Position numbers and translations under genes: made by a program. A stretch of 64,000 nt of DNA from Chitinolyticbacter meiyuanensis (GTDB lineage: Bacteria > Pseudomonadota > Gammaproteobacteria > Burkholderiales > Chitinibacteraceae): NCBI RefSeq assembly GCF_008033135.1, contig NZ_CP041335.1:1367925-1431924 (forward strand), read 5' to 3'. Positions 22,424 to 38,021 of the stretch are shown in pieces; positions within the stretch are counted from its first letter, which is position 1, and every line of letters starts with the position of its first letter. The notes under the pieces were generated by a model, which saw only the letters and a program-made list of their open reading frames with translations, was not told the origin of the DNA and did no database searches.

Positions 22424-22426
22424 ACG

Positions 22427-23188
22427 CTACTGCAGCTGGTGGCGTGCCTTGAACGCCTGCTCCATCCGCTGCAGATCGCCACTGGCTTTCAACGCGGCCA
22501 TGCCGGCATCGAAGCGGGTGCGTAGTCGTTCGGCTTCCGGATGTTTGAGCGAGAAGCCGAGAAAGAAGCGGGCACGGTTGACCTGGCCCACGCGCTTGAT
22601 CTTGCCGCGAAAGGCCGGCTCCTGCCGGATCAGGAGCTGCGCTGGCGTGGCGTTGAGCAACGCGTAATCGACCCGGCCGCTCAGCAGCTTGCGCAACTGC
22701 GCCTCGTCGCTGGGCGAGTTGTCCTTGAGGATGCCGGCATCGTTCATGATCACCGATGGGTAGGTGTAGCCATTGGTCAGCGCCACGGTCTTGCCGACGA
22801 GATCGCTGCTGCCAAGGTTCTGCCCGCGGCTGTCTGCCCGCGCATAGATGGCGAGATCTTCCTCGATCAGCGGCGTGCGGGGCCAGAGGAAGCGGTCGCG
22901 GTTATAGCCGGTGATCTCGATGTTGAAGCAGGCCACGCTGGCGCCCTGTTCCACCTCGCGCAGGCAGCGGGCAAAGGGCACCACGTTGTAGTGCACGGTG
23001 ATGCCTTGGCTGGCGAACGCTGCGCGCACGAGCTCGGTGGCGTAGCCCTGCGCCTGGTTGCGCGCGCCGCGCCAGGAAAAAGGCTTCCAGTCGTCCTCGG
23101 CATTGATGGTGATGGTTTCGGCACTGGCGAGCACACTGGTCAGCAACAGCGCGCCGCAGGCGATCCATCTCGTCAGGCCGTCCACCAT
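22427..23188 (-). CDS. periplasmic solute-binding protein, family 3 (amino-acid ABC type)
   Basis: Signal peptide 'MVDGLTRWIACGALLLTSVLASA' and an SBP_bac_3-like body. Convergent with yejE at a 3-bp gap. Confidence 0.65.
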   Translation of the reverse strand: MVDGLTRWIACGALLLTSVLASAETITINAEDDWKPFSWRGARNQAQGYATELVRAAFASQGITVHYNVVPFARCLREVEQGASVACFNIEITGYNRDRFLWPRTPLIEEDLAIYARADSRGQNLGSSDLVGKTVALTNGYTYPSVIMNDAGILKDNSPSDEAQLRKLLSGRVDYALLNATPAQLLIRQEPAFRGKIKRVGQVNRARFFLGFSLKHPEAERLRTRFDAGMAALKASGDLQRMEQAFKARHQLQ

Positions 23189-23290
23189 CGTGCTCCCTCG
23201 CGTCGCCACCGGAGAGGTCCGGTACTGGTACAACCTTACAACATATGGCCACGAGGTCGAAACCGGACAGCCCGGCGGCGCGCCGGCCGT

Positions 23291-23617
23291 TTAGAGGAAG
23301 AACGGCACGAAAATCATCACCAGGCAGGCGATCCAGGCGTAGCCCAACCCGCGTGTGAAATGGCACCAGTAGCGGTGTCGCGCACTCGGCAGCTCGGCGA
23401 TGTAGGCCGAGCGCAGCAGCGGTGGCATCACCGTGATCGCGCGAAATTCCTGGCCGATGTTGCTGTCCATGGCGCCGAGGATGTTGTCGACCAGTTGTGG
23501 GTAGTGGCGTTGGAACACGTCGTAAAGCCGCACGCATAGATATAGGTAAGCGATCGAACCCAGCAGTGTGCCGAGGATGCAATAGCCGACCACGTATTCG
23601 ACTAGGAACTCACGCAT
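23291..23617 (-). CDS. small hypothetical membrane protein (108 aa)
   Basis: Two predicted TM segments and high GC3 codon bias. Overlaps the upstream ORF by 8 bp. Confidence 0.4.
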   Translation of the reverse strand: MREFLVEYVVGYCILGTLLGSIAYLYLCVRLYDVFQRHYPQLVDNILGAMDSNIGQEFRAITVMPPLLRSAYIAELPSARHRYWCHFTRGLGYAWIACLVMIFVPFFL

Positions 23618-24023
23618 GTGCTGCCTCCTCGGCGGCTGGCATCACGGTATCGCCGATGTGGCGCGCCATATAGAGATAAAGCGCGACATACCAAGCCATG
23701 CCGAACAGCGTGAACATCGCGTCGGAACCGCGCTCTGCAGCGGGATGGATGGCTGCGAGCAGCGCAAAAAGTACGACGATGGCCACGATGCCGATCACCA
23801 GCACCATGATGAAATGCAGCATGGCGACGAAACCGATGCTCAGGTACTTGGCGAGAAACTGGGTGCCTTGTTTGCCACCGTTGGCGTTGAAGCACCACCA
23901 GGTGCCCCAGATCGGAATGGCGATATTGGTGGCGCTGTTCAGGTAGCGCCAGAAACCGCTGGTGTCATCGGGGGAATAGCCGATCAGCTCGACCGCCGCA
24001 GCGTTGAGCGCGACGAATATCAA
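23610..24023 (-). CDS. hypothetical Trp-rich membrane protein (137 aa, TTG start)
   Basis: Strong GC3 coding bias. The first in-frame start is TTG, immediately after a TAG. TM segments present. Confidence 0.4.
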   Translation of the reverse strand: MIFVALNAAAVELIGYSPDDTSGFWRYLNSATNIAIPIWGTWWCFNANGGKQGTQFLAKYLSIGFVAMLHFIMVLVIGIVAIVVLFALLAAIHPAAERGSDAMFTLFGMAWYVALYLYMARHIGDTVMPAAEEAAHA

Positions 24024-24134
24024 CTAAATAGAGAAACTGCTGGTACTCGGAAAGACCATGTGTACGCAGGTGCTGCTTCAGCGGTTGGAGTCGCCAGAAA
24101 TACATGGGGTGCCTCGTTGGGTCGGATGGCGTTG

Positions 24135-24725
24135 TCAGCCGCGTGCGCGTTCGAGCAACAGCAACATGGTCAGCGCCAGCGTGATGGCGCGTTCGGGCTC
24201 GTCGCCCAGTGGAACGTGGCGCTCCAGCACGTAGCGGCCTTCGAAGAAGGCGGCTTCCTTGCGCAGGCTCATCAGCACACGGCCGGTGTGGTCGCGCACG
24301 TCATACTGCGGATGCAGGAAGTACCCCGACAGCATCCCGACTACCGGAATCTCCTCGACGAGACCGTTGGCAAAGCGCACCCAAGGGTTGGCCTCGCTGA
24401 CCTCCAGCGTGCCGAGCCCCGGCAGCTCGATCTCGTAGCTGGCGCGCCACAGCGAGCGCATGCCGCGCCGGCGCAGCTGCGCCAACCGGCTGCCCGCCTG
24501 ATCGGAGACGCTATAGCTTGCCGAGAAATCGATGATGCGATCGGCATCGATGCGATAGAGCGGCCGGGTCTGTGCCTCGTCGGCAAACAGCGTGACCGAT
24601 TCCTTGAACTTGAACAGCTTTTGCTTGGCATGAAACAGCAGCGTGCCATCGGCATCGCGGGCGGACAGCTGCTGGGCGATCGCGAGAATCTTGAACGAAA
24701 ACTCGACGGGAAAGCGGGTGGGCAT
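24135..24725 (-). CDS. LURP-one-related / YxjI-family protein (tubby C-terminal-like, scramblase-like fold)
   Basis: 'FKILAIAQQL...LLFHAKQKLFKFKESVTLFADE' resembles B. subtilis YxjI ('KQKLFSWGDSFTIYDE'). C-terminal hydrophobic tail. 5 bp downstream of the giant ATPase gene. Confidence 0.6.
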   Translation of the reverse strand: MPTRFPVEFSFKILAIAQQLSARDADGTLLFHAKQKLFKFKESVTLFADEAQTRPLYRIDADRIIDFSASYSVSDQAGSRLAQLRRRGMRSLWRASYEIELPGLGTLEVSEANPWVRFANGLVEEIPVVGMLSGYFLHPQYDVRDHTGRVLMSLRKEAAFFEGRYVLERHVPLGDEPERAITLALTMLLLLERARG

Positions 24726-24730
24726 GGCTG

Positions 24731-27700
24731 TTACTCCGTGGTGTCGGCCTTGGCCGGCTTTCTGGTGGCGCGATTGAGCGTCGCATCCATGGTCTTGATC
24801 TGTTCGCCGATCAGTTTGACCTTGTCCCAGATGTCATGGTCGAGTCGGATCTTGTGCTGCATGGCGCTGATCACGGGGATCAAGGCGTTTTCATAGGCAT
24901 GACCCAGCGCCTGCAGCACTGACAGCAGCTCCGGCTGTGGCGGCACGGTGATCTGCGGCTGGCTGTCGCGCAGCGCCTGCTCCAGCGCAACGAGCCCGTC
25001 GCGCCAAGTGCGGGCCAGCAGCTTGCTGCTGGTTTCGCCGGTGGCCAAGTGCTTTTCGATCTGGCCGATGGCGGCGGCGATCTGCTGGCCGCTGTCCTGG
25101 TTGGCGAGCCGCGCGCTGATGTCGCCGAGCGCGCTGACGATATGCGAGACCTGCTGCGCCAGCTTGGTGGCACCGTCGGCGTCCGAGCCGCCCATGCGCT
25201 TGTGGTGCAGGAAATCGCGCTTGATCTGCGCCCAGCGCTCGGCCTCTTGAGCGGTGAGGACGCCTTGCAGCTCGGCCAGCTTCAACAGGTTTTCCTCGGC
25301 GCCGTGGGTGAGTGTCTGTGCTTCGCCGAGGTAGTGATCGCGCACCATGGCGGCAAGCTCGGTCTCGTTCATGATGGCGGAGACCTTGATCGCCAGCTTG
25401 GCCATGTTGCGATAGCTGCCCTGCAGCTTGAATGGTGGCTCCACACGGTAGGCATCGGCTTGCGCCGCCGAGGCGATATAGGCGGCGTTCACCTTCATCA
25501 GCACTTCGCGCACGGCGAACAATTTTTGCAGCACCGCCACGATCTCGCCCGCTTCGGCCGCGCTGTAGCCGTGCTTGAAGTCGGTGAGCGGCACGGCGTC
25601 GCCGCTGGCCTGGCGCAGGAACAGCTGGATGTCGGCCGGATCGCGGTGTGACAGCGGCGCAAGCACCGGATTGGCGGTGAGGCTGTTCTCGATGTACGAC
25701 AGCGCGAACAGTGCTTCCTTGCCGGAGAGCACATCGCCCAGGTTGTAGATGTCGGCGCGGTTGGCCAGCATGTCTGGGATACGGAAGGCTTCGCCAGTCT
25801 CGGTATACGGGTTGCCGGCCATCACCACGCAGAAGCGTTTGCCGCGCAGATCATAGCTCTTGGCTTCACCTTTCCAGATGCCCTCAATGCGACGGGTGCC
25901 GTCACACAGCGCGATGAAACGCTGCAGGAATTCGGGCGAGGTGTGCTGGATGTCGTCGACGTACAGCATCACGTTGTTGCCCATTGCCAGGCCAAAGTTC
26001 AGCCGCTCCAGCTCTTGGCGCGCCGCGCTGCTGTCGGCCTGGGCCGGATCGAGCGAGGTGACCTTATGGCCGAGTGCCGGGCCGTTCACGCGTACGAACA
26101 CCAGACCCAGCCGGTTGGCCACGTACTCCATCAGCGTGGTCTTGCCGTAACCCGGTGGCGAAATCAGCAGCAAGAGGCCCATCAGGTCGCCACGCCGCGA
26201 TTCGCCAGCGGTGCCGATCTGCTTGGCGAGATTGTCGCCGATCAGCGAGAGGTAGACCTCGTCGATCAGCCGGTTGCGCACGAAGCCTGAGAGCGGCTTG
26301 GCCTGATATTGCTCCAGCCGTAGCGTCCGGCGGGTGCTGTCGACGATGTCCTGACGCAGCGCCTGCAGCGTGGTGAAGGCGGGTACCACGGTGGCGTCGT
26401 AATCGGTCAGCCGCGCGCGGAATTCGTTGAGATCGAGCGCGAGCCCGCCATTGACGACGCGCGGATGCGCGCCGACGAGGCCGTCCACGGTGCCGGTCAG
26501 CGCCACGCTGAGCCGGTTGCGCGGCAGCTCCGTCAGCAGCAGCGCCGCGGCTTCCGGTGCGTAGCCCACGGGCAGGCCGTGGCTGCTCGCCAGCGCTTCG
26601 CACCAGTGCAGCGCCAGCGCCCAGCGCTCATGCAGGCTGCCGGTCTGCAGCCCGTCGCGCAGCACGCCGATCACGCCGCGCCGCTCCAGCTCGGTTTGCA
26701 GTGTGGACACCAAGTGCTGGGCATCGCCGCTGGCGAGCCATTCGGCGCTGCCACTGGTCAACTCGGCAATCAGGTAGTCGACCAACTGCTCGCGCGTTGC
26801 CGGCTCGAGCGTGAAGCCTTCACGCGCGCAGAACGCGTCGAGCTGGCCGGCAAGGTTGTCCACCAGTGCCTGCAACGCCTTGCCTTCACCGAACTCGGCA
26901 CGGATGCGGTGCGCGTTGTCGGCACGGGTACGCCAGCCCGCCTTGTCGTTCTCCCAGATGCCATGCGCCCAGAACAGCGCGGCAAGGCCACGCGGTAGCG
27001 GGCCGAAACGCAGCAGCCCGGCTTCGCGATCCATCGGTAGCAAGGCGGCGAGCAGGGCGGCAGCGTCCACATCGTGTACGCCCTTCTGGTAGCCCTCGTG
27101 ATAGCGGGTTGCAGCGAAGTCACGCACCAGCGGCGTGAGCCCGGTGTCCGACAATCGCGCCGCTTCCAGCGCGGCGGCATCGAGCTCGCCCGCATGCATG
27201 GCGGCGAGCATGCGCCAGGCCAGGTATTCGGCGCGGTAGACCAGGTCGTTCTCCGACACCAGCTGCTGCGGCCAATAGGGCCGGAGTGCCAGCAGGCGTT
27301 CGTCGGCGAGCGGTTCGAAGTAGTCGGTGCCGGTCAGGTGCAGCGCCAGCGCATCGTCGCGATGCACCAGCGTCAGATCGAACGGTTGGGTGGTAACGGC
27401 AAAGGTGTGGCGACCCAGGCGGATGCCGTCGGCGCTGAACAGCTCGCCCTTGTCGCGCTGAATGCGCACCGCGTTGTCGCGCAGCGAGGTGAGCCGGCCT
27501 TCCAGCGTATCGGCTTGCACCGTGTCGTTCAGTCGGCGCAGATCGCCGATCAGGCCGCGCAGCTTGTGCACCATCGGATCGGCGGCGAAGTAGCTGTGCA
27601 GCTCCTCGGGCGAGCTGAAGCGCGAAAGCCGCTTCTCGATGCTCTCGACGATGCGGCGGGCGGCGGCGGCCAGCGATTGGGCGCGTTGCTGGCGGGCATC

Positions 27701-29992
27701 GAGCAGCGTCTGCCGCCGGCTGGCGAAAGCGTCGTAGACGGCATCGCGCTTGGCGACGATGTCGGCGAGGAAGGTGTCCTGACCGCCGAAGCGGGTTTCC
27801 AGCTCTTCCAGCTGGGTCAACAGCTGCGTGAGCGCTTCGTCGCAGCGTTCCGGGCTGTCGGCCAGGTCGAGTGCGTTGGCTACGCTCTGGCCGAACAGCT
27901 TGAACTGCGCGCCAAATTCGGCACTGGCCTCGCGTACTGCGAGCTGGTCGCGCTGGGCCCGGGCGCGGGCGCGCACCTGGTTGAGTCGGGCATAGACCTC
28001 GCCGATATCATCGAGGATGCGGGTGCGCACGGTGGCATCGCCGCTGTCCAGTCCGGCCAACAGCTCGGTCAGCAGGTCGAGACCGCTGGCGGTGCCGTCG
28101 AGCGCGGTCAGTTGCGGCGTCAGCGCGGCCACGGTCGGGATGCCCGGCAGGGCCGTGGCGATCGCATCAAGCTCGCCGTGGTAGCCGGCGAAGGCCTGTG
28201 GCGCGCCGAGAAAGCGCACCGTCTCGTCGGACAGCCGCTTCTGTTCGGCGGCAAGGCCAGCGTCGATGGCCTGCAGCCGTGCCGCATCGATATAGCGCTG
28301 CTCGGAGAGGCCCAGCAGCTCGCCGCGCACGGCGCGCAAGCGGGCCAGTGCATCGACGAACTGCTGCGGCGCCTTCCAGATGGTGGCGGCGATGTCGGTG
28401 AGCAGCGCCTTGTTCTGCGCTTCCATCTTTGCCAGCGCGGTATCGGCAGCGTGGCGGATGGCGGTGACCTTGTCGAACTCGTCGAGCGTCAGCCGCGCGG
28501 TGTCGGCGATGGTCTTGAGCGCGCCGCCGAGCTGGCCGGCTTCGGCCTCGTCCAGCCAGAAGTAGCCATCCTGCAGCCGGGTGATGGCGCGGATCAGGTC
28601 CTCGTAGTGCAGCCGGCTCGGGCTCTGTTCGCGCGTGGCGCGGGCGATGGCATAGAGCTCGGACAGTCCACGCACCAGCTCCGGATTGCCGATACGGCCG
28701 AAGAAGCCGGGTGGTGGCGCCTTGGCGGCGTATTCGTCGCTGCAGAATGGTGTGGTCCACAGCTGCATCGCGTGATTGCGTGTCGCTTCCTCGCCTTCGG
28801 CGTTGAACAGCAGCACGCGGCCATCGTCGAAGCGGGCGTAGCCGTTGCTGAACAGCGGTGAGGACAGTGCCTTGTCGATCAGGTTGTAGGCCAGCAGCGC
28901 ATAGCGGCCGGCCTCGGCATCGTGGAACACGTACAGCACATCCTCGCCATTGGGCGAGCGCAGCATGCGCTTGAACCGCAGGCCGGTGACATCCTCGGTG
29001 AAGGTCTTGTATTCGCCGCTCTGCAGGTAGCAGCCACCGGGAAAGACGATGCCGTGATCCTCGGGCAACTGCACGCAGGAATCGCCGATGCCATCGATGC
29101 GTGTCACCGCCTGGGTACGGGTGTTGAACACCAAGTAGCGATACGCCGTTTCGCGATAGGGCAGGATCTTGAGCAGGATCAGCGCGCCCAGTCGGGCGTA
29201 GCTGATCTCGGCGTCGGTCAGCGACTGGCTGGCATCGTCCACCGGCTCGCTGTAGATGCCACGGCCGACATCGGTGTTGTTCTCGACCTTGATCGTCAGG
29301 TCGCCGTTGATGGTTTCGACGAACAGCGCATCAAGGATGTTGATATGCGGATGCTTGCCGTTGACATGCTGCTCGCGGCCGGTGGCGATCCATTCGAAAT
29401 CGTGCGACGGCGGCGGTGCGATATCCCGCTCGCCCCGGTTGTCGATGTATTGGGTGACGGCCCCATCGCGCCCAAGCTGCCAGCGGAACACCCGCAGGTC
29501 GCTGGCGCGGGCGCCGATCTGGAACGCGGCGAGCAGCTTGTCGCCAGTGACACGCAGCTGGCGCAGGCTGGCGTGCTTGTAATAGGCGTAGAGCTCGCGG
29601 AAGTCGGCAGCGAAGCGTGGGTCATCGAGAAAGGTGCCAGCCGTGGCGACGGCTTCCAGCTCGACCGCATCGTCATTGCCGGCAAGCCGGTACAGGCTGA
29701 ACACATCGTCGACGCGCGTTTCCTGGCGCAGGCCGATATAGACGTTGTAACCGAACAGCAGCAGCTCTCCGACCCGCACGATGTCGCGCGCTACGCAATT
29801 GTTCTCGGTGCGGGCACGGGTGCGTGCCAGCAGGCGCAGGTCGGCCCGGCCGAAGGCGGCGAGCCGCGCCTCGTTCAGCGTGCCGGCTGCGCCCAGCAGT
29901 ACCTCACCCTGCTGGGACAGGCGCTGCTTCAGCAACTCGTAGCCGCCGCTGGCGGCGATGTCCTGGTCGATTTCCGGAAAGGTGCTCATCAA
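24731..29992 (-). CDS. giant (1753 aa) alpha-helical protein with a single MoxR/dynein-like AAA+ module; families of this kind are sometimes annotated 'DNA repair ATPase'
   Basis: Walker A 'LLLISPPGYGKTTLMEY' encoded near 26150-26180. 'CVVMAGNPYTE...RADIYNLGDV' sensor/Arg-finger-like region. Long coiled-coil-like regions on either side. Confidence 0.6.
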   Translation of the reverse strand: MMSTFPEIDQDIAASGGYELLKQRLSQQGEVLLGAAGTLNEARLAAFGRADLRLLARTRARTENNCVARDIVRVGELLLFGYNVYIGLRQETRVDDVFSLYRLAGNDDAVELEAVATAGTFLDDPRFAADFRELYAYYKHASLRQLRVTGDKLLAAFQIGARASDLRVFRWQLGRDGAVTQYIDNRGERDIAPPPSHDFEWIATGREQHVNGKHPHINILDALFVETINGDLTIKVENNTDVGRGIYSEPVDDASQSLTDAEISYARLGALILLKILPYRETAYRYLVFNTRTQAVTRIDGIGDSCVQLPEDHGIVFPGGCYLQSGEYKTFTEDVTGLRFKRMLRSPNGEDVLYVFHDAEAGRYALLAYNLIDKALSSPLFSNGYARFDDGRVLLFNAEGEEATRNHAMQLWTTPFCSDEYAAKAPPPGFFGRIGNPELVRGLSELYAIARATREQSPSRLHYEDLIRAITRLQDGYFWLDEAEAGQLGGALKTIADTARLTLDEFDKVTAIRHAADTALAKMEAQNKALLTDIAATIWKAPQQFVDALARLRAVRGELLGLSEQRYIDAARLQAIDAGLAAEQKRLSDETVRFLGAPQAFAGYHGELDAIATALPGIPTVAALTPQLTALDGTASGLDLLTELLAGLDSGDATVRTRILDDIGEVYARLNQVRARARAQRDQLAVREASAEFGAQFKLFGQSVANALDLADSPERCDEALTQLLTQLEELETRFGGQDTFLADIVAKRDAVYDAFASRRQTLLDARQQRAQSLAAAARRIVESIEKRLSRFSSPEELHSYFAADPMVHKLRGLIGDLRRLNDTVQADTLEGRLTSLRDNAVRIQRDKGELFSADGIRLGRHTFAVTTQPFDLTLVHRDDALALHLTGTDYFEPLADERLLALRPYWPQQLVSENDLVYRAEYLAWRMLAAMHAGELDAAALEAARLSDTGLTPLVRDFAATRYHEGYQKGVHDVDAAALLAALLPMDREAGLLRFGPLPRGLAALFWAHGIWENDKAGWRTRADNAHRIRAEFGEGKALQALVDNLAGQLDAFCAREGFTLEPATREQLVDYLIAELTSGSAEWLASGDAQHLVSTLQTELERRGVIGVLRDGLQTGSLHERWALALHWCEALASSHGLPVGYAPEAAALLLTELPRNRLSVALTGTVDGLVGAHPRVVNGGLALDLNEFRARLTDYDATVVPAFTTLQALRQDIVDSTRRTLRLEQYQAKPLSGFVRNRLIDEVYLSLIGDNLAKQIGTAGESRRGDLMGLLLLISPPGYGKTTLMEYVANRLGLVFVRVNGPALGHKVTSLDPAQADSSAARQELERLNFGLAMGNNVMLYVDDIQHTSPEFLQRFIALCDGTRRIEGIWKGEAKSYDLRGKRFCVVMAGNPYTETGEAFRIPDMLANRADIYNLGDVLSGKEALFALSYIENSLTANPVLAPLSHRDPADIQLFLRQASGDAVPLTDFKHGYSAAEAGEIVAVLQKLFAVREVLMKVNAAYIASAAQADAYRVEPPFKLQGSYRNMAKLAIKVSAIMNETELAAMVRDHYLGEAQTLTHGAEENLLKLAELQGVLTAQEAERWAQIKRDFLHHKRMGGSDADGATKLAQQVSHIVSALGDISARLANQDSGQQIAAAIGQIEKHLATGETSSKLLARTWRDGLVALEQALRDSQPQITVPPQPELLSVLQALGHAYENALIPVISAMQHKIRLDHDIWDKVKLIGEQIKTMDATLNRATRKPAKADTTE

Positions 29993-30033
29993 CGATGGCC
30001 TTGTAGACGGGGCAGGGTGGGCAGGTGGCTGGA

Positions 30034-30582
30034 TCAGCCCAGCGTGGAATCGCTTGCCTGCAGGTAGGCCAGCAGCACAGCGCGCAGCGGGTGGCCGGCC
30101 AGCCAGGCGCGCACGCGCTGCGCCTCGGCGTAGTCGGCCTCACCCAGTCGGGCGCGCCAGGTGGCATCGAGCCGTTCGCGCGATTCGGTTTCACGTACCT
30201 CGCGCTGGCCGCGATCGCTGAGGATATGCAGCAGCGAGTGCGTCAAACCCTGGGCGCGCAGCGCCGGCCATTCCTCGCCATCGAGCCAGACCTTGCGGCA
30301 GGCGCTGCAGCGATCGAGCCTGAACTTGAGGTGCCCGGCAACACGGTACTTCTGCAGCAGCTGTGCGCAGTCTGGGCAGCGCAGCGCGCGCGGCGAGGTC
30401 TCCTCCAGCAGCTCGGCAGTGGCCGCCAGCGCCTCGGTAGCCTGCTGCGGCGCTTGTGCCACCCAGCGGCGATAGTCGTCGAGCGCGAGCCAGGTGCCTT
30501 GGCAGGTGGGGCATTGCTCGGCCATCAGGCCGGGCTCCAGCGATTCACGGCGGGTTTCGGTGTTGCAGCTGAGGCAATACAT
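30034..30582 (-). CDS. double zinc-ribbon protein (YdjG-like)
   Basis: Two CxxC...CxxC ribbons ('CLSCN...CPTCQGTWL' and 'CPDC...CSACRKVWLD'). Start lies 9 bp after the upstream ORF stop. Confidence 0.6.
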   Translation of the reverse strand: MYCLSCNTETRRESLEPGLMAEQCPTCQGTWLALDDYRRWVAQAPQQATEALAATAELLEETSPRALRCPDCAQLLQKYRVAGHLKFRLDRCSACRKVWLDGEEWPALRAQGLTHSLLHILSDRGQREVRETESRERLDATWRARLGEADYAEAQRVRAWLAGHPLRAVLLAYLQASDSTLG

Positions 30583-30591
30583 GGGTATGTC

Positions 30592-30909
30592 CTACCAGTA
30601 GACGAAGAAGTAGAGCAACAAGGCAGTGGCATTGCCGAGCATGGTGTAGCGCAGCAGGCGTACTCGCCGAAACAGGCGCCGCTCCAGTTCCGGAATCCGG
30701 CTCCAATCGGGATTGCTATCGGCGAACTCGTTGACGAGGCTCATGCTTTTGGCGATACCGCAGGCGGGATCAAAGTCAGCAGGCGGTGCCTTGTCATCTG
30801 CACTGAGCAGGTCCGGGCAACGGTGCAGGATCACCCGGTAAGCGCGGTTGCACTGATCCGAGTACAGGGCGAACAGCAGGAACAGGAGCGTGAACAGGGC
30901 AAGACCCAC
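30592..30909 (-). CDS. small two-TM membrane protein (GTG start preferred)
   Basis: The track ORF runs 60 bp into the flotillin gene. A GTG at 30909 preceded by GGAGAAG gives a ~105-aa protein with N- and C-terminal TM helices. Confidence 0.4.
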   Translation of the reverse strand: MGLALFTLLFLLFALYSDQCNRAYRVILHRCPDLLSADDKAPPADFDPACGIAKSMSLVNEFADSNPDWSRIPELERRLFRRVRLLRYTMLGNATALLLYFFVYW

Positions 30910-30964
30910 GGCGCTTCTCCGGTGATACCTGAGGCGGGGCACGCCATGGGCGGCCCCGCGTTGC

Positions 30965-33037
30965 TTATTTGCGACCCAGCGAGCCGAGCAGCTTGCCGAG
31001 TGCCTCCTGTGTTTCCGCGTTGCCATCCTTCATCACCCGATGCAGCAGTGCGGCGGCGGACAGGTTCTGCAGCTCGTCGGCGGACTGGCCGAGGCCGCCG
31101 AGCAATTTGCCGGCGTCGTCGATCAGGTTGCGCTCGCCGGCGCGATGCGGTGCGGTGGCGAGCTGCAGCGTTTCGCTCTTGCCGATGGCGCCGTCGATGG
31201 CCTTGCCGATGCCCAGCGCATTGACGAAGCGCTGGAAGTAGTCGCCCTCGCCGCCGACGATGTCGATACGCGCGTTGCCCAGCGCCTTGCCCAGCACCTC
31301 GGCCTGTTCCCGGGCAATGCTGGTGTTGGCGTCGATGGCCTTGAGCGTCTGCACATGGGCGTTGTCGAGGCGCATGCGGAATTCCTCGTGGGCACGGGTG
31401 TCCTCGCTCATTGCCTTCATTGCTTCGAACTTCGAATGCAAGCCCTTGGCTTCGGCGGCGAACTTGGCTTCGATCGCGTGCGCGTCGGCCGTCTTGACCG
31501 TGACGTCGGCGAGGCCCAGCTTCTCGCGGCCCGACGCTTCGGCTTCCAGCTTGAGGCGCAGCGCCTCGGCCTCCGCTTCGCCCATGCGGCTGACCGCGTC
31601 GGCGTCGGCCATCTTCACCTTGGCGGCGATCATGCCGTCCTTCTCCTTGGCATCGGCCGTTACCAGCATCACCTTGGCGTCCGCCAGGCCCGGGGCGGCG
31701 GACAATGCCTCGACGCCCTCAGCTTCACGCTTCTTGGCCTCGGCCTCCTTCTCGGCGACCTTGAGCTTGGCGTCGGCCAGCGTGGTTTCCTCGACGGCCT
31801 TGTGCTTGGCGCGGCGCTCCTCGGCTTCGGCGGCCTTCACTTCCAGCACCAGCTTTTCCTCGGCCTTGGCTTCGGCCGCAATCACCGTGGCCTTGCGGGT
31901 GCGATCGGCCTCGGCGACCACGCGCAGCTCCTTGATCGCCTCTTCCTGCTCGGCCACCGTGCGTTCCACCACGATGCGCTCACGGATCACGTCGGCGATG
32001 GCCTTCTTCTCGATCTCGATCGCCTTGTCGGCCTCGATGCCCTGCAGTGCCACTTCGCGCTCGCGGTCGACCACTTCCAGGTCGCGGGCACGGGTGACCT
32101 TTTCCTCTTCGATGGCGACGGCGCGCTTGCGGTTGTTCTCCGCCACTTCCTTCTCGCGCTGCATGTTCTCCTGCTGCACGGCGATCAGCTGCTCGGCCTG
32201 GATGCGCGCAACCTCGGCCTTGGCGTGTTCCTCGGCGGAGACGCGGTCGGCCTCGGCCTGCTCGCGGGCCCGTACGCTGGCAATCTCGCGCTGCTGGCGC
32301 GCCTCGGCGTCGGCCTGCTGGCGCTGCAGCTCGAGGATGGTCTCGGCGGTTTCGACATCCTTCTTCTTGATCTGCATTTCCTCGTTGCGCTGCAGTTCAT
32401 TGGTGGTGACGTGCTGCACCGCGGTGAGCTCAGTGATCTTGCGGATGCCCTGCGCGTCAAGGATGTTGTTGCGGTCGAGCTTGTCCATCGGTGTCTGCTC
32501 GAGGTAATCGATGGCCGCGTCTTCCAGCACGTAGCCGGAGAGGTTGTCACCGATCTGGCGGATGATCTCGTCGCGGAACTTGTCGCGCGCCATGTAGAGA
32601 TCCTCGAAATCCATCGCCTTGCCGACGGTCTTCAGCGCCTCGGCGAACTTGGCGGCGAACAGCTCTTCCAGCGTGTCCTGGCTGGAGGCACGCTCACAAC
32701 CGACGGTCTGCGCCACGCGCAGCACATCCTCGGCTGTCTTGTTCACGTGGACGAAGAAGGTCACTTCGATGTCGGCGCGGATGTTGTCACGACAGATCAG
32801 GCCGGCGTTGCCCGAGCGCTTGATGACGATGGTCTTGAGCGAGATGTCCATCAGCTCCATCTTGTGGATCACCGGGTAGACCATGCGACCGGTGAAGGTG
32901 ACTTCCGGCTCGCTGCGCAGCGTGTTCACGATCATGCCGCGGCCCTGTTCGACCTTGTGATAGAACTTCACGAACAACAGGAATGCGCTGAAGACGAAGA
33001 AGGCGATGATGGCAATCGCCGTGATGATGGCGGTCAT
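30965..33037 (-). CDS. yqiK: flotillin-family (SPFH/band 7) protein, YqiK-like
   Basis: N-terminal TM, then SPFH domain ('MVYPVIHKMELMDISLKTIVIKR') and a long A/E/K-rich coiled-coil tail. Confidence 0.85.
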   Translation of the reverse strand: MTAIITAIAIIAFFVFSAFLLFVKFYHKVEQGRGMIVNTLRSEPEVTFTGRMVYPVIHKMELMDISLKTIVIKRSGNAGLICRDNIRADIEVTFFVHVNKTAEDVLRVAQTVGCERASSQDTLEELFAAKFAEALKTVGKAMDFEDLYMARDKFRDEIIRQIGDNLSGYVLEDAAIDYLEQTPMDKLDRNNILDAQGIRKITELTAVQHVTTNELQRNEEMQIKKKDVETAETILELQRQQADAEARQQREIASVRAREQAEADRVSAEEHAKAEVARIQAEQLIAVQQENMQREKEVAENNRKRAVAIEEEKVTRARDLEVVDREREVALQGIEADKAIEIEKKAIADVIRERIVVERTVAEQEEAIKELRVVAEADRTRKATVIAAEAKAEEKLVLEVKAAEAEERRAKHKAVEETTLADAKLKVAEKEAEAKKREAEGVEALSAAPGLADAKVMLVTADAKEKDGMIAAKVKMADADAVSRMGEAEAEALRLKLEAEASGREKLGLADVTVKTADAHAIEAKFAAEAKGLHSKFEAMKAMSEDTRAHEEFRMRLDNAHVQTLKAIDANTSIAREQAEVLGKALGNARIDIVGGEGDYFQRFVNALGIGKAIDGAIGKSETLQLATAPHRAGERNLIDDAGKLLGGLGQSADELQNLSAAALLHRVMKDGNAETQEALGKLLGSLGRK

Positions 33038-33118
33038 GGTTGCTCCCTGATGAGAAGGCGATACGTCGCTGCGGGCCCGCGCGGGGCGGGTCTGTTGTAC
33101 GGGGTTGAAATTGCGGGA

Positions 33119-33733
33119 TCAGCTGTCGTCGAGTGCGGCGATGGTGTAGCTGCCGCTGGCCGCGTCGTAGTCGACGATGACGGCGCGCGTACCGCGGGTG
33201 AGGGTGTTGGGGGTGCTGGCGCGGACCCGCAGGTTGATGCTGGCGCCGGCTCCTGCCACCTCGGCCTGGCCGAAGCGCTCGGTCACTTTCAGCGTCAGTA
33301 CCTTGCACGCGCTGCCGACCAGTGCCGGATTGCGGATGGCGTTGTGGCTGACGAACAAGCCGCGCATCGGCCGCAGCACGGCGGCGGTGACCGGCAGGGC
33401 CACCGCGAAGCTGAGCAGCAGCAATGCTGCGCCGGCCAGGTAGTGCAGCCAGCCGGGCAGCCAGCCCACCAGATATTGATCGGCAAGGCAGGACACCAGC
33501 CATCCGGTTAGCGTGATCAGGCTGATGACGATGGAGAACGGCACGCCGCCCAAGCCCAGCGCCATCAGCTTGCCGGAAAGGTCGCCAAAGTCGCCGGCTT
33601 CCCCATCGACATCGAGCGCATCGATATCGACGAAACCGACCATGGCCGCGATCCAGTACAGCAGCACCACACCTAGCAACACCGTCCAGATGGCGGTGGG
33701 GAAGCGGCTGATGGTGTCGAGGAAACTGCTCAT
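33119..33733 (-). CDS. yqiJ: NfeD-like / YqiJ-family (DUF1449) membrane protein with C-terminal OB-fold
   Basis: Multi-TM N-terminus and a soluble C-terminal beta-rich domain. Sits upstream of flotillin, as in E. coli yqiJK. Confidence 0.7.
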   Translation of the reverse strand: MSSFLDTISRFPTAIWTVLLGVVLLYWIAAMVGFVDIDALDVDGEAGDFGDLSGKLMALGLGGVPFSIVISLITLTGWLVSCLADQYLVGWLPGWLHYLAGAALLLLSFAVALPVTAAVLRPMRGLFVSHNAIRNPALVGSACKVLTLKVTERFGQAEVAGAGASINLRVRASTPNTLTRGTRAVIVDYDAASGSYTIAALDDS

Positions 33734-34320
33734 GGCGTGGCTCCTTCTATTTGCCCGGCGCGGATCAGCCGTGGCGTACCTAGGTGCGACAGATAGAGCG
33801 TGCCGCGCAGGCCGCGCTGCGCATCGATTACGTCAACTTGCCAGCCGCTGTACCAGACATGGCGCAACGTATCTGGCTGCAGCACGAAAGCCGGGCCGCC
33901 GATCTGCTCCGGCGTGGCGTAGAGCGCTACCTTGTTGTTGCGCCCGATGGCGATCACGGTGTGCGCATACACCTGCCGTTGCGGCACGGCAGCGACCATG
34001 CCGGTCGGCGCCCAGAACGTGGCCGGCAGTTGCGCCACCGGCACATCCGCGAGGCTGACGCCAGAAAACGTAGGGTGCGTGTCGTCGGCGCTACCGAGCG
34101 AATAGCTGGCGACTGTTCCGGATTGGGTACCCGCCGGTTGCTGCAGTCGCGGCCACTGGTTGTAGGCCACCAATGCCAGCAGACCGGTGATGCCAGTGAG
34201 CACAAGCAGCGTGCGAGCGCGACGGCGCAATACCGGCAATCGATGGAGCCAGTCGGTAAACCAGGCGCTGCCCATGGCCAAGCCGGGGGGCAGCATGTCG
34301 CGTGATTCGCGTTGAGTCAT
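33730..34320 (-). CDS. membrane-anchored periplasmic protein, hypothetical
   Basis: Single N-terminal TM 'LLVLTGITGLLALVAY', then a ~150-aa soluble domain. Stop overlaps the yqiJ start as ATGA. Confidence 0.45.
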   Translation of the reverse strand: MTQRESRDMLPPGLAMGSAWFTDWLHRLPVLRRRARTLLVLTGITGLLALVAYNQWPRLQQPAGTQSGTVASYSLGSADDTHPTFSGVSLADVPVAQLPATFWAPTGMVAAVPQRQVYAHTVIAIGRNNKVALYATPEQIGGPAFVLQPDTLRHVWYSGWQVDVIDAQRGLRGTLYLSHLGTPRLIRAGQIEGATP

Positions 34321-34344
34321 CGGTGGGCCTTCGGGTTGATGAGG

Positions 34345-34680
34345 TCAGGTGTGCGGTGCTTGTTGTCGGGCGAATACCAGCAGTTCGCCCTGCACCCGCT
34401 CCTTGATTTCCAGCCGTTGTTCCGGGGCGAGCCCGAAGCGCGCGGCGAGTGCGATGTAATCGTCGTCCGACAGCGTGACGGTGAGCCTGGGGCGCTTGGG
34501 GCGGCTGGTGACCGGCAGGTCGAGCACCTTGCGGATCTGGTCCGAGTTGCTGAGGTTGTGCTCGAAGGCGGCGCGGCGCACGGCCTGCATCACTTCCTCT
34601 TCCACGTCGAAGGCCACCTGCACCGCGCGGATGGCGGGCGCCGAGCTCTCCCAGCGCGGTGGCAGCCTTTTGTTGCTCAT
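34345..34680 (-). CDS. small protein with two tandem ribbon-helix-helix-like repeats, putative DNA-binding
   Basis: 'IRAVQVAFDVEEEVMQAVRRAAFEHNLSNSDQIRKVL' and 'RLTVTLSDDDYIALAARFGL' each fit a beta-strand plus helix RHH pattern. Overlaps the PspA stop by 4 bp. Confidence 0.4.
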   Translation of the reverse strand: MSNKRLPPRWESSAPAIRAVQVAFDVEEEVMQAVRRAAFEHNLSNSDQIRKVLDLPVTSRPKRPRLTVTLSDDDYIALAARFGLAPEQRLEIKERVQGELLVFARQQAPHT

Positions 34681-35390
34681 TCGGCTTGCTCGCCGTGGCC
34701 GGCTTCACGTCGCGCCTTGAGGCGGGCGAGCACGGCCTCCTTGCGGTTGGCGTTGTCACCGATGCCGGCCGCGGCCAGTTTCTGTTCCAGCGCCTTGTTG
34801 CCGAACTCGGCATCGAGCTCCTCGGCGGCCTTCATCCGGTCCGCCATCTGCGTATGCCGCTCCTTGATCCGTTCCAGTGATTCGCGGGCATTGCCGAGCT
34901 TGGAGGCGCCGCTGCCCATGCTTTGCGAGATCGATTCGGTGGCGCGGTAGACGCTTTCGGTGGTCTTGGCGACGGCGAGTTCGCGCTCGTGCTCGCGCAC
35001 CCGGGTCTCGGCCTGCCGGATCAGATCCTTCAGGTTGGCAATGTGGCCGGCGAATTCACGTTGTGCCTGCTGCTGGGCGGCGCGCTCTGCCTCCAGCTCG
35101 GCAATGCGGCTGGCAACATCGACGGCGAGGTTTTCCTCGGCCTTGTCGAGCGCGGCCAGCGCGTGTTCCTCAAAGCGGGCGATCTCCTTGTCGAGTCGCT
35201 CGATCTCGCGGCCGGCGGCTTTTTCCTGCGCCATGACCAGCGTCAGGTCCTGCTTGGCGCGCACCAGCGCGGCCTTCGATTCGTGGATTTCCTGCTCGTA
35301 GATGCGGGTGGCATTGGCGTCCACCACACTCTCGCCGATTTCGCGTGCGCTGCCCTTGAGGGCGGTCAGGATCTTGCTGAAGACGGACAT
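34677..35390 (-). CDS. PspA/IM30-family protein (YjfJ-like)
   Basis: 'MSVFSKILTALKGSAREIGESVVDANATRIYEQEIHESKAAL' aligns with the PspA N-terminus. Coiled coil throughout. Confidence 0.85.
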   Translation of the reverse strand: MSVFSKILTALKGSAREIGESVVDANATRIYEQEIHESKAALVRAKQDLTLVMAQEKAAGREIERLDKEIARFEEHALAALDKAEENLAVDVASRIAELEAERAAQQQAQREFAGHIANLKDLIRQAETRVREHERELAVAKTTESVYRATESISQSMGSGASKLGNARESLERIKERHTQMADRMKAAEELDAEFGNKALEQKLAAAGIGDNANRKEAVLARLKARREAGHGEQAE

Positions 35391-35407
35391 GTTGGGCTCC
35401 TAGTCGA

Positions 35408-35821
35408 TCAGTGCAGGTAGTCGGCCATGGCTTCGAGGGCATCGACTGCGTTGTCGCTCAGCGCCAGCAGATCCTGGGCGAGATCGTCGGCACCGGCATC
35501 GCGGGCCAGTGCGCCGTACAGCAGGTACTTGTCGCCGATGCGGCCGAACGAGGACAGTGGAATGGCCACATTGAGGTCGAGCATGGCTTCGAGCAGGGCG
35601 GTACGGCGGGCTGGGGCAATGTCGTGCTCGGTCCAAAGGTAACAGATGCACAACAGCTGGCTGTCAGCTTCCGTGATGAAGATCGGCAGCTCTTCCCGGC
35701 CGCTGACCGCGACCTTGTACACCACGACCTCGCCAGGAATGCGCTCGACGTCAAATGCGCCCAGCTGGCTGGCAAGTCGTTGTCCTGCCTCGGAAATGCG
35801 CTGTTGCAATGCGTGGTCCAT
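35408..35821 (-). CDS. DUF2170-family protein (YjfI-like)
   Basis: Start at 'MDHALQQRI' with a GAGGAG RBS. Paired with the PspA homolog, as in E. coli yjfIJ. Confidence 0.7.
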   Translation of the reverse strand: MDHALQQRISEAGQRLASQLGAFDVERIPGEVVVYKVAVSGREELPIFITEADSQLLCICYLWTEHDIAPARRTALLEAMLDLNVAIPLSSFGRIGDKYLLYGALARDAGADDLAQDLLALSDNAVDALEAMADYLH

Positions 35822-35847
35822 GGCGACTCCTCGTGATGGATGCATTC

Positions 35848-35890
35848 AACATAATCGGCTTGACATATGATGTCAAGACATTTTATGTCT
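35848..35890 (-). promoter_or_regulatory. sigma70-like promoter (TTGACA-17-TATGTT) for the yjfI/pspA-like operon, overlapped by two GACAT-N3-ATGTC palindromes
   Basis: Minus-strand -35 at 35876..35871, -10 at 35853..35848. Palindromes at 35859-35877 (CTTGACATatgATGTCAAG) and 35876-35890 (AGACATtttATGTCT). Confidence 0.55.
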
Positions 35891-37931: not shown

Positions 37932-38021
37932 CGTTTTCTCCAGTGGGCTTGAAACGGGGGTGAACAAAAGGCCCTGCCTCCAGATGGGGGCAAGGCCCAT
38001 GATGACAAGCGGGAATGACGA

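What the first reader, a model, noticed from the sequence alone, without database searches (positions are those of the whole stretch)
24731..29992. Giant 1753-aa protein with one MoxR/dynein-like AAA+ module embedded in ~1200 aa of helical sequence
Only one nucleotide-binding module is visible: Walker A 'SPPGYGKTT' encoded near 26150-26180, then 'VVMAGNPYTE' and 'RADIYNLGDV'. It sits about two-thirds of the way along the protein and is flanked by long Ala/Leu/Glu/Arg-rich, probably coiled-coil, regions. I did not see any DNA-repair motif, such as nuclease, helicase or SMC signatures. This architecture, one MoxR-type AAA+ module in a very large helical scaffold, recalls midasin- or dynein-like mechanochemical proteins rather than repair enzymes. 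I am not aware of functional characterisation of proteins with this architecture.
Basis: partly seen in the sequence, partly recalled or inferred. Interest (0 to 1): 0.75.

Follow-up and report, generated by a model that had tools for sequence, protein, structure and literature searches.

The report
Giant flotillin-linked MoxR-type AAA+ ATPase (BacE)
This 1,752-residue protein is a real but biochemically untested ATP-driven machine that is always encoded next to a membrane-scaffold (flotillin/NfeD) pair; it is mislabelled "DNA repair ATPase", and both the family and its operon have already been described in the literature.

Summary
The ORF is real. It is identical to the Chitinolyticbacter meiyuanensis protein annotated "DNA repair ATPase".

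The protein is not all helical. Its layout is beta domain, spectrin-like rods, helical linker, AAA+ module, variable tail.

In 75 of 75 related loci with upstream sequence, from at least four phyla, a divergent flotillin gene lies directly upstream. An NfeD/YqiJ-like gene precedes it in 69. PspA and YjfI (DUF2170) are added in about 40%.

This is the P. aeruginosa bacABCDEF operon, and the giant is the BacE (PA3728) ortholog. Popp et al. [quoted passage not shown]

No experiment has addressed its function. The best inference is an ATP-driven remodeller of the flotillin/NfeD scaffold in an envelope-stress response. It is not a repair enzyme.

It is a new member of a known, uncharacterised kind, of moderate interest.

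The parts
24731..29992 (-). Giant gene, the BacE/PA3728 ortholog annotated 'DNA repair ATPase'. 1752 aa from the ATG at 29989. Soluble, with no predicted TM segment.
28559..29890 (-). Pfam DUF3686 match (aa 35-478). Its core, aa ~50-415, is beta-rich: about 27 strands in roughly seven groups of four. The literature calls these beta-propeller repeats; that was not confirmed here. Probable partner-binding domain.
27440..28558 (-). Spectrin-repeat-like helical rods (aa ~479-851). They include Pfam DUF7902 (aa 599-682, nt 27947-28198).
26243..27439 (-). Small beta unit plus helical linker domain (aa ~852-1250). This is the least conserved internal region.
25730..26209 (-). AAA+ alpha/beta core (aa ~1262-1421). 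Features:
- Walker A GYGKTT (K1284, nt 26135-26161)
- Walker B hhhhDD (D1346/D1347, nt 25952-25957)
- pre-sensor-1 beta-hairpin (aa 1368-1381)
- sensor-1 N1394
- arginine finger R1412
25193..25729 (-). AAA+ lid and helical domain (aa ~1422-1600). It holds the invariant 'QGSYRNM' motif (R1528), a candidate sensor 2. There are about 110 residues between beta5 and R1528, which is compatible with a pre-sensor-2 insertion.
   Evidence: The sensor-2 assignment is an inference.
24734..25192 (-). Poorly conserved helical C-terminal tail (aa ~1601-1753).
   Evidence: Conservation is 0.17-0.29 and pLDDT is lower.
30965..33037 (-). Divergent flotillin/SPFH protein, 690 aa, BacD/PaFlo3-like. It has one N-terminal TM segment and a long coiled coil. 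It is the invariant upstream partner of the giant gene.
   Evidence: NCBI name 'flotillin family protein'. Upstream in 75 of 75 informative loci. Pfam Band_7 is detectable in only 1 of 13 orthologs. TM prediction. PMC13086221.
33119..33733 (-). NfeD/YqiJ/YuaF-like membrane protein, 204 aa with about 3 TM segments, BacC-like. The NCBI label is 'ubiquinone biosynthesis protein'.
   Evidence: Present in 69 loci. Best PDB hit is YuaF but weak, E 0.56. TM prediction.. PMC11237479.
34677..35390 (-). PspA/IM30 (ESCRT-III-like) protein, BacB/YjfJ-like.
   Evidence: Pfam E 1e-35. Present in 31 of 80 loci.
35408..35821 (-). DUF2170/YjfI (CesT-like) protein, BacA-like, and first gene of the operon. The likely start is the ATG at 35821, preceded by GAGGAG.
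   Evidence: Present in 28 of 80 loci.
35848..35876 (-). Sigma-70-like promoter TTGACA-17-TATGTT, overlapped by the palindrome CTTGACATCATATGTCAAG. This is the candidate operon promoter and operator.
   Evidence: It is the only promoter-like hit in 22000-38500. Sequence.
30034..30582 (-). Double zinc-ribbon protein, 182 aa, between the flotillin gene and the giant gene. A lineage-specific insert.
   Evidence: Pfam. Homologs in 12 of 80 loci; where they sit between the flotillin and giant genes, the locus is betaproteobacterial.
33730..34680 (-). Two small operon genes with no family assignment: a 111-aa protein (34345-34680, homologs in 13 loci) and a 196-aa protein with one TM segment (33730-34320).
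24135..24725 (-). Downstream 196-aa gene, 5 nt after the giant's stop codon. It is not conserved elsewhere. It gives a weak hit to the LURP-one/tubby-like family.

Best explanation
**Identity.** The gene encodes the BacE-type giant AAA+ ATPase.

**Anatomy.** It is a soluble cytoplasmic protein. From the N terminus it has a beta-rich DUF3686 head, spectrin-like helical rods, a helical linker, one MoxR-class AAA+ module and a variable tail.

**Context.** It is the third gene of an almost invariant module: an NfeD/YqiJ-like membrane protein, a divergent flotillin (SPFH), then this ATPase. In many Proteobacteria, including this window, the module is extended upstream by YjfI (CesT-like) and PspA. 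Together these form an operon of about 11.7 kb that corresponds to P. aeruginosa bacABCDEF.

**Proposed mechanism (inferred).**
- The AAA+ modules assemble into a ring, probably a hexamer as in MoxR proteins. The invariant arginine finger R1412 points to catalysis between subunits.
- The DUF3686 heads, held on the helical rods, dock onto the cytoplasmic flotillin/NfeD assembly.
- ATP turnover remodels that scaffold. It could assemble it, open it, disassemble it or extract clients from it. PspA polymers may be a further substrate where PspA is present.
- The setting is envelope stress: osmotic shock, biofilm growth, phage infection.

**Shown here:** domain anatomy, motif conservation, MoxR-like fold, synteny, orthology to bacE.

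**Taken from the literature:** co-transcription, co-regulation and stress induction in P. aeruginosa.

**Inferred only:** ring formation, direct binding to flotillin/NfeD, and the remodelling activity.
For: **Fold**

**Motifs**
- Walker A, Walker B (DD), sensor-1 N1394, R1412 and the 'GSYR' motif are invariant across phyla.
- The 381-aa AAA+ module has no indel in 17 sequences from several phyla and 71% mean column identity.

**Synteny**
- A flotillin homolog lies directly upstream in 75 of 80 loci. The other five loci start at a contig edge.
- An NfeD-like gene is present in 69 loci, PspA in 31 and DUF2170 in 28.
- The taxa include Beta-, Gamma- and Zetaproteobacteria, Myxococcota, Actinomycetota and Acidobacteriota, plus Deinococcota and Bacteroidota on plasmid records.

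**Topology**
- The giant has no TM segment. The flotillin has one N-terminal TM segment followed by basic residues, so its bulk should face the cytoplasm.

**Orthology to bacE**
- The published PA14 bacD-bacE RT-PCR primers map to the flotillin gene and to the conserved 'TENNCIA' codons of the giant gene in Pseudomonas loci. The predicted amplicon is 546 bp against 557 bp published.

**Literature**
- bacA to bacF are co-transcribed. BacB to BacF rise 6- to 13-fold in a bacA mutant (PMC10948618).
- PA3728-PA3732 are up-regulated in all phage-infected samples (PMC12041424).
- PA3731 is induced by osmotic shock and needed for biofilm formation and virulence (PMC2587700).
- The same operon architecture was noted by comparative genomics (PMC11237479).

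**Other support**
- Downstream genes vary but are membrane-related: rhomboid, PLD-like, MscK-like.
- One contig encodes an NfeD1b_N domain fused to DUF3686.
Against: - No experiment shows binding between this ATPase and flotillin or NfeD. ATPase activity and oligomeric state are also untested.
- MoxR ATPases normally work with a VWA-domain partner. None was seen in the window or in the annotated loci.
- Walker B is an invariant DD rather than DE, so hydrolysis may be slow or switch-like.
- Flotillin/NfeD pairs without this ATPase are widespread (PMC11237479), so the scaffold does not in general need it.
- The 690-aa partner is so divergent that Pfam Band_7 detects only 1 of 13 orthologs. Its SPFH identity therefore rests on database names and on PMC13086221.
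- The DUF3686 fold is unassigned.
Confidence: 0.5

Rival explanations
1. It is a Vps4-like remodeller whose real substrate is the PspA/IM30 (ESCRT-III-type) polymer encoded in the same operon. Flotillin/NfeD would serve only as the membrane anchor.
For: PspA and its CesT-like partner sit in the same operon here and in 31 of 80 loci. PMC11237479 draws the analogy between PspA-linked AAA+ ATPases and Vps4/ESCRT-III. PA3728-PA3732 are co-induced (PMC12041424).
Confidence: 0.15
2. It is a conventional MoxR-type maturation chaperone. It would insert a cofactor into, or activate, a specific client enzyme, as CbbQ/CbbO, NorQ/NorD and RavA/ViaA do. The flotillin linkage would reflect only localisation.
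For: The closest structures are CbbQ and NorQ. AAA_5 matches the core.
Against: No VWA/MIDAS partner and no recurrent client enzyme appear in the window or in related loci. The 1250-aa N-terminal extension has no counterpart in known MoxR proteins.
Confidence: 0.1
3. It is part of an anti-phage or abortive-infection system that acts at the membrane.
For: PA3728-PA3732 are up-regulated on infection by two virulent phages (PMC12041424). Copies occur on megaplasmids such as pQBR103. Some loci carry a PLD-like gene with a weak EAD1 hit.
Against: PADLOC gives only marginal Walker-A-level hits. About 50% identity over 1700 aa across phyla, together with stable synteny, is unlike fast-evolving, patchily distributed defence genes. 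The flanking genes in the window do not form a defence island.
Confidence: 0.07
4. It is a DNA repair ATPase, as annotated.
For: Only the label supports this: the Pfam DUF3686 description 'ATPase involved in DNA repair' and the NCBI name. There are weak matches to the RuvB P-loop segment.
Against: The RuvB, p97 and similar matches cover only about 35-50 residues around Walker A. No nuclease, helicase, SMC or DNA-binding domain was found. The conserved context is entirely membrane-related. No paper ties the family to repair.
Confidence: 0.02

Closest known systems
P. aeruginosa BacE (PA14_16190 / PA3728) of the bacABCDEF operon
   Same: Ortholog by synteny: YjfI/DUF2170, PspA, NfeD, flotillin, then the giant gene. 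Primer mapping agrees. It is co-transcribed and co-regulated with bacA-D and bacF (PMC10948618).
   Different: This window has extra genes: a 111-aa gene, a 196-aa gene, a possible 105-aa ORF and a zinc-ribbon gene. Its downstream gene differs, with no rhomboid. It has a sigma-70-like promoter rather than the proposed sigma-54 promoter. BacE itself has never been analysed for domains or activity.
[quoted passage not shown]
   Same: Same protein family and same operon, including the optional PLD (HKD) gene and the abbreviated flotillin + YqiJ/YuaF + ATPase form.
MoxR-family AAA+ ATPases (CbbQ, NorQ, RavA; Pfam AAA_5)
   Different: MoxR proteins are about 250-500 aa and pair with a VWA protein. 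This one is 1752 aa, has no VWA partner, has Walker B DD, and scores just under the AAA_5 threshold (21.8 against 22).
Dynein and midasin (Rea1/Mdn1)
   Different: Dynein and midasin carry six concatenated AAA modules in one chain. This protein has one module with an intact arginine finger, so any ring must be homo-oligomeric.
SPFH-AAA+ pairs: HflK/C with FtsH, and prohibitins with the m-AAA protease
   Same: An SPFH scaffold is functionally coupled to an AAA+ machine at the membrane. The HflKC-FtsH relation is summarised in PMC13086221.
   Different: FtsH is a membrane-anchored classical-AAA protease. Its gene is not adjacent to hflKC in the way seen here. BacE is soluble, MoxR-class and has no protease domain.
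Vps4 / ESCRT-III
   Same: An AAA+ ATPase is encoded together with an ESCRT-III-superfamily protein (PspA). A plausible role is recycling a membrane-bound polymer.
   Different: Vps4 is a classical AAA protein with an MIT domain. Here no MIT domain was found, the fold is MoxR-like, and PspA is an optional neighbour.

Membership tests
AAA+ superfamily | Walker A GxxxxGK[T/S] | tested here: met
   GYGKTT with K1284 is invariant in 102 sequences.
AAA+ superfamily | Walker B hhhhDE | tested here: met
   The motif is VMLYVDD. D1346 and D1347 are invariant, but the usual catalytic Glu is Asp in every member.
AAA+ superfamily | Sensor-1 polar residue at the end of beta4, and an arginine finger before beta5 | tested here: met
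   N1394 and R1412 are invariant. Their positions relative to the strands come from the DSSP assignment on the model.
AAA+ superfamily | Alpha/beta core plus helical lid fold | tested here: met
   [not shown]
MoxR family (AAA_5; pre-sensor-2-insert clade) | Closest structural neighbours are MoxR proteins | tested here: met
   [not shown]
MoxR family (AAA_5; pre-sensor-2-insert clade) | Pfam AAA_5 match above the gathering score | tested here: inconclusive
   This protein scores 21.8 bits against a cutoff of 22, over profile positions 2-125 of 139. Homologs pass, at 27.7 and 25.2 bits, and PF07728 is precomputed for many members.
MoxR family (AAA_5; pre-sensor-2-insert clade) | Pre-sensor-1 beta-hairpin | tested here: met
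   Two strands at aa 1368-1381 lie between alpha3 and beta4 in the model.
MoxR family (AAA_5; pre-sensor-2-insert clade) | Helix-2 insert beta-hairpin | tested here: inconclusive
   The region between beta2 and alpha2 (aa ~1304-1321) is a conserved 18-residue loop. DSSP does not assign it as a hairpin.
MoxR family (AAA_5; pre-sensor-2-insert clade) | Sensor-2 arginine preceded by an inserted helix | tested here: inconclusive
   The invariant 'QGSYRNM' motif (R1528) lies about 110 residues after beta5, with five helices in between. No coordinates were available to check the geometry.
MoxR family (AAA_5; pre-sensor-2-insert clade) | Genomic pairing with a VWA/MIDAS-domain partner | tested here: not met
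   No VWA domain was found in the window neighbours, in two annotated loci or in ten downstream genes. Not every ORF of the 80 loci was scanned.
DUF3686-AAA+ giant ATPase family ('DNA repair ATPase' / BacE) | DUF3686, DUF7902 and a single C-terminal AAA+ module in a protein of about 1600-2100 aa | tested here: met
   Pfam E-values are 9e-194 and 5e-28. The same architecture is seen in all listed full-length homologs. Nearly all the apparently complete representatives are about 1550-2040 aa.
DUF3686-AAA+ giant ATPase family ('DNA repair ATPase' / BacE) | Encoded directly downstream of a flotillin gene preceded by an NfeD/YqiJ-like gene | tested here: met
   True in the window. Flotillin is upstream in 75 of 75 informative loci and NfeD is present in 69.
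Dynein / midasin | Six concatenated AAA modules in one polypeptide | tested here: not met
   There is one P-loop module only.
Classical AAA (Vps4, p97, FtsH) | Second region of homology with two arginines, no sensor-2 arginine, and sequence similarity across the core | tested here: not met
   [not shown]
DNA repair ATPases (SMC/RecN/RecF, RuvB, helicases) | ABC/SMC signature or helicase motifs, a DNA-binding or nuclease domain, and a repair-gene context | tested here: not met
   None was found in Pfam, NCBIfam or PADLOC. RuvB equivalog scores are 18-22 bits against cutoffs of 282-299. The context is membrane-related.
Beta-propeller (for the DUF3686 domain) | Closed ring of 4-stranded blades with structural matches to known propellers | tested here: inconclusive
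   [not shown]

The most novel reading that the evidence does not exclude
The NfeD-flotillin-BacE triad may be a dedicated, ATP-driven machine for remodelling bacterial membrane microdomains. In this reading a MoxR-class ring, carrying DUF3686 heads on spectrin-like arms, docks onto the cytoplasmic cap of an SPFH cage. The DUF3686 head would be a beta fold with no solved relative. The ring would then open, disassemble or unload the cage. That would be a cytoplasmic counterpart of FtsH-HflK/C and of Vps4-ESCRT-III. It would give bacterial flotillins their first defined enzymatic partner.
Probability: 0.3. Interest if true: 0.75.

Novelty: new member of a known kind. Interest (0 to 1): 0.42.

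Why it matters
What bacterial flotillins do is still argued over. In P. aeruginosa, single and multiple SPFH deletions gave little phenotype (PMC13086221).

An ATPase that is obligately linked to one flotillin subfamily, and very strongly conserved, offers a concrete experimental handle. The AAA+ module has no indel across phyla. Walker A and arginine-finger mutants, pull-downs and cryo-EM of the triad would test directly whether SPFH scaffolds are actively remodelled.

The work also corrects a widely propagated annotation, 'DNA repair ATPase', which has no support. It connects three literatures that do not cite each other on this gene: the bac operon, PSP comparative genomics, and the Pfam DUF3686 entry.

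For this particular window, however, the gene is an ordinary ortholog of an already noticed family.

Tried and rejected
- **AAA+ clade from sequence.** I tried a single sequence and a 17-sequence profile against PDB sequences. Only the Walker A stretch matched (p97, NVL, Rix7, RuvB), so this was uninformative.
- **Sigma-54 promoter, as proposed for P. aeruginosa bacA.** The TGGCAC-N5-TTGCW scan gave 39 matches against 43 expected by chance, and none was convincing upstream of the operon. A sigma-70-like site was found instead.
- **Rfam scan of 22000-38500.** No matches.
- **Literature.** 'DUF3686' and 'PF12458' occur in no paper. No paper combines 'DNA repair ATPase' with flotillin or NfeD.
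- **Pfam Band_7 on the flotillin partner.** No hit for this protein, and a hit for only 1 of 13 orthologs. A profile against the PDB found nothing.
- **Conservation of the downstream 196-aa gene.** No homolog in any of the 80 loci.
- **An AAA-less 1040-aa relative (P0334).** It stands alone without a flotillin gene and was not pursued further.
Full report
**1. The observation**

The ORF at 24731..29992 on the minus strand is real. It has the codon-position GC pattern of genuine genes in this 64% GC window, 0.70/0.44/0.85. Apart from the first codon it is identical to a 1752-aa protein of Chitinolyticbacter meiyuanensis annotated 'DNA repair ATPase'. The true start is therefore the ATG at 29989.

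'SPPGYGKTT' is encoded at 26135-26161. 'VVMAGNPYTE' and 'RADIYNLGDV' lie within 25730-25960.

Pfam finds DUF3686 (aa 35-478, E 9e-194) and DUF7902 (aa 599-682). It also gives weak AAA, AAA_22 and AAA_5 hits around aa 1272-1397. NCBIfam and PADLOC give only marginal matches at the Walker A level. No nuclease, helicase or SMC domain was found.

**2. Anatomy**

Two AlphaFold2 models were built on a 102-sequence alignment spanning several phyla. One covers aa 2-900 and the other aa 880-1753. Both reached a mean pLDDT of 88. The layout is as follows.

- A long N-terminal helix.
- A beta-rich domain at aa ~50-415, with about 27 strands in roughly seven groups of four.
- A small beta unit and a helical linker, to about aa 1250.
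- One AAA+ module, aa ~1250-1600.
- A poorly conserved helical tail.

It misses a 400-residue beta domain that is one of the best conserved parts of the protein.

The protein has no predicted transmembrane segment.

**3. The AAA+ module**

*Conservation.* This is the most conserved region. In 17 sequences from several phyla, a 381-residue stretch aligns without a single indel, at 71% mean column identity.

*Invariant residues.*
- Walker A lysine K1284.
- A Walker B that reads hhhhDD (D1346, D1347) rather than hhhhDE.
- Sensor-1 N1394.
- R1412, at the position of the arginine finger.
- A 'QGSYRNM' motif (R1528), which I take to be sensor 2.

*Secondary structure.* The model shows a beta-hairpin between alpha3 and beta4, that is, a pre-sensor-1 hairpin.

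*Clade by sequence.* Sequence methods cannot place the module. Both the single sequence and a family profile match p97, NVL, Rix7 and RuvB only over the Walker A stretch.

- NVL 12.1, dynein 11.8, ClpA 11.6, midasin 11.3.

*Pfam AAA_5.* This protein is just under the threshold, at 21.8 bits against 22. Homologs are above it.

The protein still departs from canonical MoxR in three ways:
- it is three to seven times larger;
- it has no VWA partner nearby;
- it has Walker B DD.

Unlike dynein and midasin, it has a single module with an intact arginine finger. This implies a homo-oligomeric ring.

**4. Context in the window**

The gene sits in a tightly packed minus-strand cluster running from 35821 to 24135. 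The order is:

1. DUF2170/YjfI
2. PspA/IM30
3. a 111-aa protein
4. a 196-aa protein with one TM segment
5. a 204-aa NfeD/YqiJ-like protein with about three TM segments
6. a 690-aa protein that NCBI names 'flotillin family protein', with one N-terminal TM segment and a long coiled coil
7. a possible 105-aa ORF with two TM segments
8. a double zinc-ribbon protein
9. the giant gene
10. a 196-aa protein

This order rests.

The only sigma-70-like promoter hit in 16.5 kb lies just upstream of the first gene (35876-35848). It is overlapped by a perfect palindrome.

The flotillin is very divergent. Pfam Band_7 detects only 1 of 13 orthologs.

**5. Context elsewhere**

The DUF3686 domain occurs in 708 clusters at 50% identity. 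Nearly all the apparently complete members among the listed hits are about 1550-2040 aa.

A scan of one genome per species returned 80 loci. They come from Beta-, Gamma- and Zetaproteobacteria, Myxococcota, Actinomycetota and Acidobacteriota. tblastn with the window's proteins gave these counts.

| Neighbour of the giant gene | Loci out of 80 |
|---|---|
| Flotillin directly upstream | 75 (the other five start at a contig edge) |
| NfeD-like gene | 69 |
| PspA | 31 |
| DUF2170 | 28 |
| 111-aa gene | 13 |
| Zinc-ribbon gene | 12 (betaproteobacterial wherever it lies between the flotillin and giant genes) |

Plasmid records add Deinococcota and Bacteroidota. The triad arrangement was read in the Deinococcus record. 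They also show a pQBR103 locus that merges a yjfIJKLMC-like set of genes with the SPFH gene and the ATPase gene.

Downstream genes vary but are membrane-related: a rhomboid protease, a PLD-like hydrolase and an MscK-like channel.

The conserved core is therefore NfeD-like, flotillin and the giant ATPase.

**6. What is already known**

Three literatures bear on this gene.

*PSP comparative genomics.* Popp et al. (mSystems 2024, PMC11237479; preprint 2020) describe operons that combine four elements:
- CesT/Tir(YjfI)-PspA;
[quoted passage not shown] - a YqiJ/YuaF-type 3TM protein.

A PLD gene is sometimes present. They also describe abbreviated forms that lack PspA.

*The P. aeruginosa bac locus.*
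- PA3729-PA3732 is the 'biofilm-associated cluster'. A mutant in PA3731, the PspA-like gene, is defective in biofilm, swarming, rhamnolipids and virulence. PA3731 is induced by osmotic shock (PMC2587700).
- The operon was later extended to bacABCDEF by RT-PCR. BacB to BacF rise 6- to 13-fold in a bacA mutant (PMC10948618).
- I verified that bacE is the ortholog of this gene. The published bacD-bacE forward primer matches the flotillin gene of a Pseudomonas-group locus exactly. The reverse primer matches the 'TENNCIA' codons of the giant gene, giving a 546-bp amplicon against 557 bp published.
- PA3728 is listed as an 'ATPase' recurrently mutated in cystic-fibrosis isolates (PMC8190622).
- PA3728-PA3732 are up-regulated in all phage-infected samples (PMC12041424).
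- PaFlo3 (PA14_16180) and its short NfeD partner are catalogued in PMC13086221.

*The DUF3686 label.* No paper mentions DUF3686 or PF12458. None reports a domain analysis or any biochemistry of BacE.

**7. Mechanism**

The established facts are these:
- the protein is soluble and has a MoxR-class ATPase with an intact arginine finger;
- it carries a conserved beta-rich head on long helical rods;
- it is strictly linked to a membrane-anchored flotillin/NfeD pair whose bulk should be cytoplasmic;
- it is co-expressed with the rest of the operon under envelope-related stress.

From these I infer a ring-forming remodeller. It would dock on the flotillin/NfeD scaffold through its N-terminal head. 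It would use ATP to assemble the scaffold, open it, disassemble it or unload clients from it.

HflK/C-FtsH and prohibitin-m-AAA are precedents for coupling between an SPFH scaffold and an AAA+ machine. Vps4-ESCRT-III is the obvious analogue where PspA is present.

One low-coverage contig encodes an NfeD1b_N domain fused to DUF3686. The AAA+ part is in the next gene, and a 693-aa gene with no Pfam hit, the size of the flotillin partner, lies directly upstream. This is suggestive but may be an assembly artefact.

I give this mechanism a confidence of about 0.5. The rivals are:
- a PspA-specific Vps4 analogue (0.15), which fits poorly with PspA being absent from about 60% of loci;
- a conventional MoxR maturation chaperone (0.1), for which no VWA partner or client was found;
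- a defence system (0.07), which fits poorly with the conservation pattern and the lack of PADLOC support;
- DNA repair (0.02), supported by the label alone.

**8. Verdict**

The architecture was incompletely read and the novelty was overstated.

This is an ordinary ortholog of a widespread family that has already been noticed but remains biochemically uncharacterised. The 'DNA repair ATPase' name is unsupported. The family itself is a worthwhile experimental target, because it may be the enzymatic partner of a bacterial flotillin.

Noticed in passing
window 35848-35877 (-): The only sigma-70-like promoter hit in 16.5 kb is TTGACA-17-TATGTT. It is overlapped by the perfect palindrome CTTGACATCATATGTCAAG, a candidate operator. 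No convincing sigma-54 site was found, unlike the proposal for P. aeruginosa bacA.
   Followed up: partly
window 30592-30909 (-): The 382-nt gap between the flotillin and zinc-ribbon genes holds a plausible 105-aa ORF. It starts with GTG after GGAGAAG, has hydrophobic N- and C-terminal ends, and has GC3 of 0.76. No homolog occurs in the 80 related loci.
   Followed up: partly
window 33119-33733 (-): The NfeD/YqiJ-like membrane protein carries the NCBI name 'ubiquinone biosynthesis protein'. That looks like a misannotation. Its best PDB hit is YuaF, though weak, and it occupies the BacC position.
   Followed up: partly
window 25952-25957 (-), aa D1346-D1347: Walker B is an invariant DD instead of DE across the whole family. 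From memory, this resembles the 'DDIQF' motif of DnaA. It may indicate slow or switch-like hydrolysis.
   Followed up: no
window 25193-26335 (-), aa 1219-1599: The 381-residue AAA+ region aligns without a single indel in 17 sequences from several phyla, at 71% mean column identity. Such rigidity is unusual for so large a family.
   Followed up: partly
[not shown]
   Followed up: partly
L081 (pQBR103, NC_009444.1 83419-102909): A P. fluorescens megaplasmid carries one merged gene run. In order it encodes YjfI, PspA, rhomboid, DUF2491, DUF350, DUF1190, a glutathionylspermidine-synthase-like protein, a hypothetical protein, SPFH and 'DNA repair ATPase'. This joins the two PspA operon classes that are described separately in PMC11237479.
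   Followed up: no
L084 6001-13100: This contig has an unusual arrangement. A 693-aa gene with no Pfam hit, the size of the flotillin partner, comes first. It is followed by a 1345-aa ORF with NfeD1b_N fused to DUF3686 and DUF7902. A separate 982-aa AAA gene comes next. This is either a Rosetta-stone fusion and split or a frameshift artefact of a 5x long-read contig.
   Followed up: partly
P0264 and P0261: Two cluster representatives join flotillin sequence to giant-ATPase sequence in one ORF. They may be real fusions, in-frame deletions or assembly chimeras.
   Followed up: no
L083 8001-11123 (P0334): A 1040-aa relative has DUF3686 and DUF7902 but no AAA+ module. It has no flotillin neighbour and lies among genes for proteins with Por-secretion-tail domains.
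   Followed up: partly
L014 15205-15756; L001 15156-15872; L052 15566-19012: The gene after the giant varies by lineage. It is a rhomboid protease in Pseudomonas-type loci, overlapping the giant's stop codon, and is probably BacF. It is a PLD-like hydrolase in some Burkholderiales and an MscK-like mechanosensitive channel in Comamonas. All three are membrane-related.
   Followed up: partly
window 24135-24725 (-): The downstream 196-aa protein is restricted to Chitinolyticbacter. It gives a weak hit (E 0.008) to the LURP-one-related (tubby-like) family.
   Followed up: no
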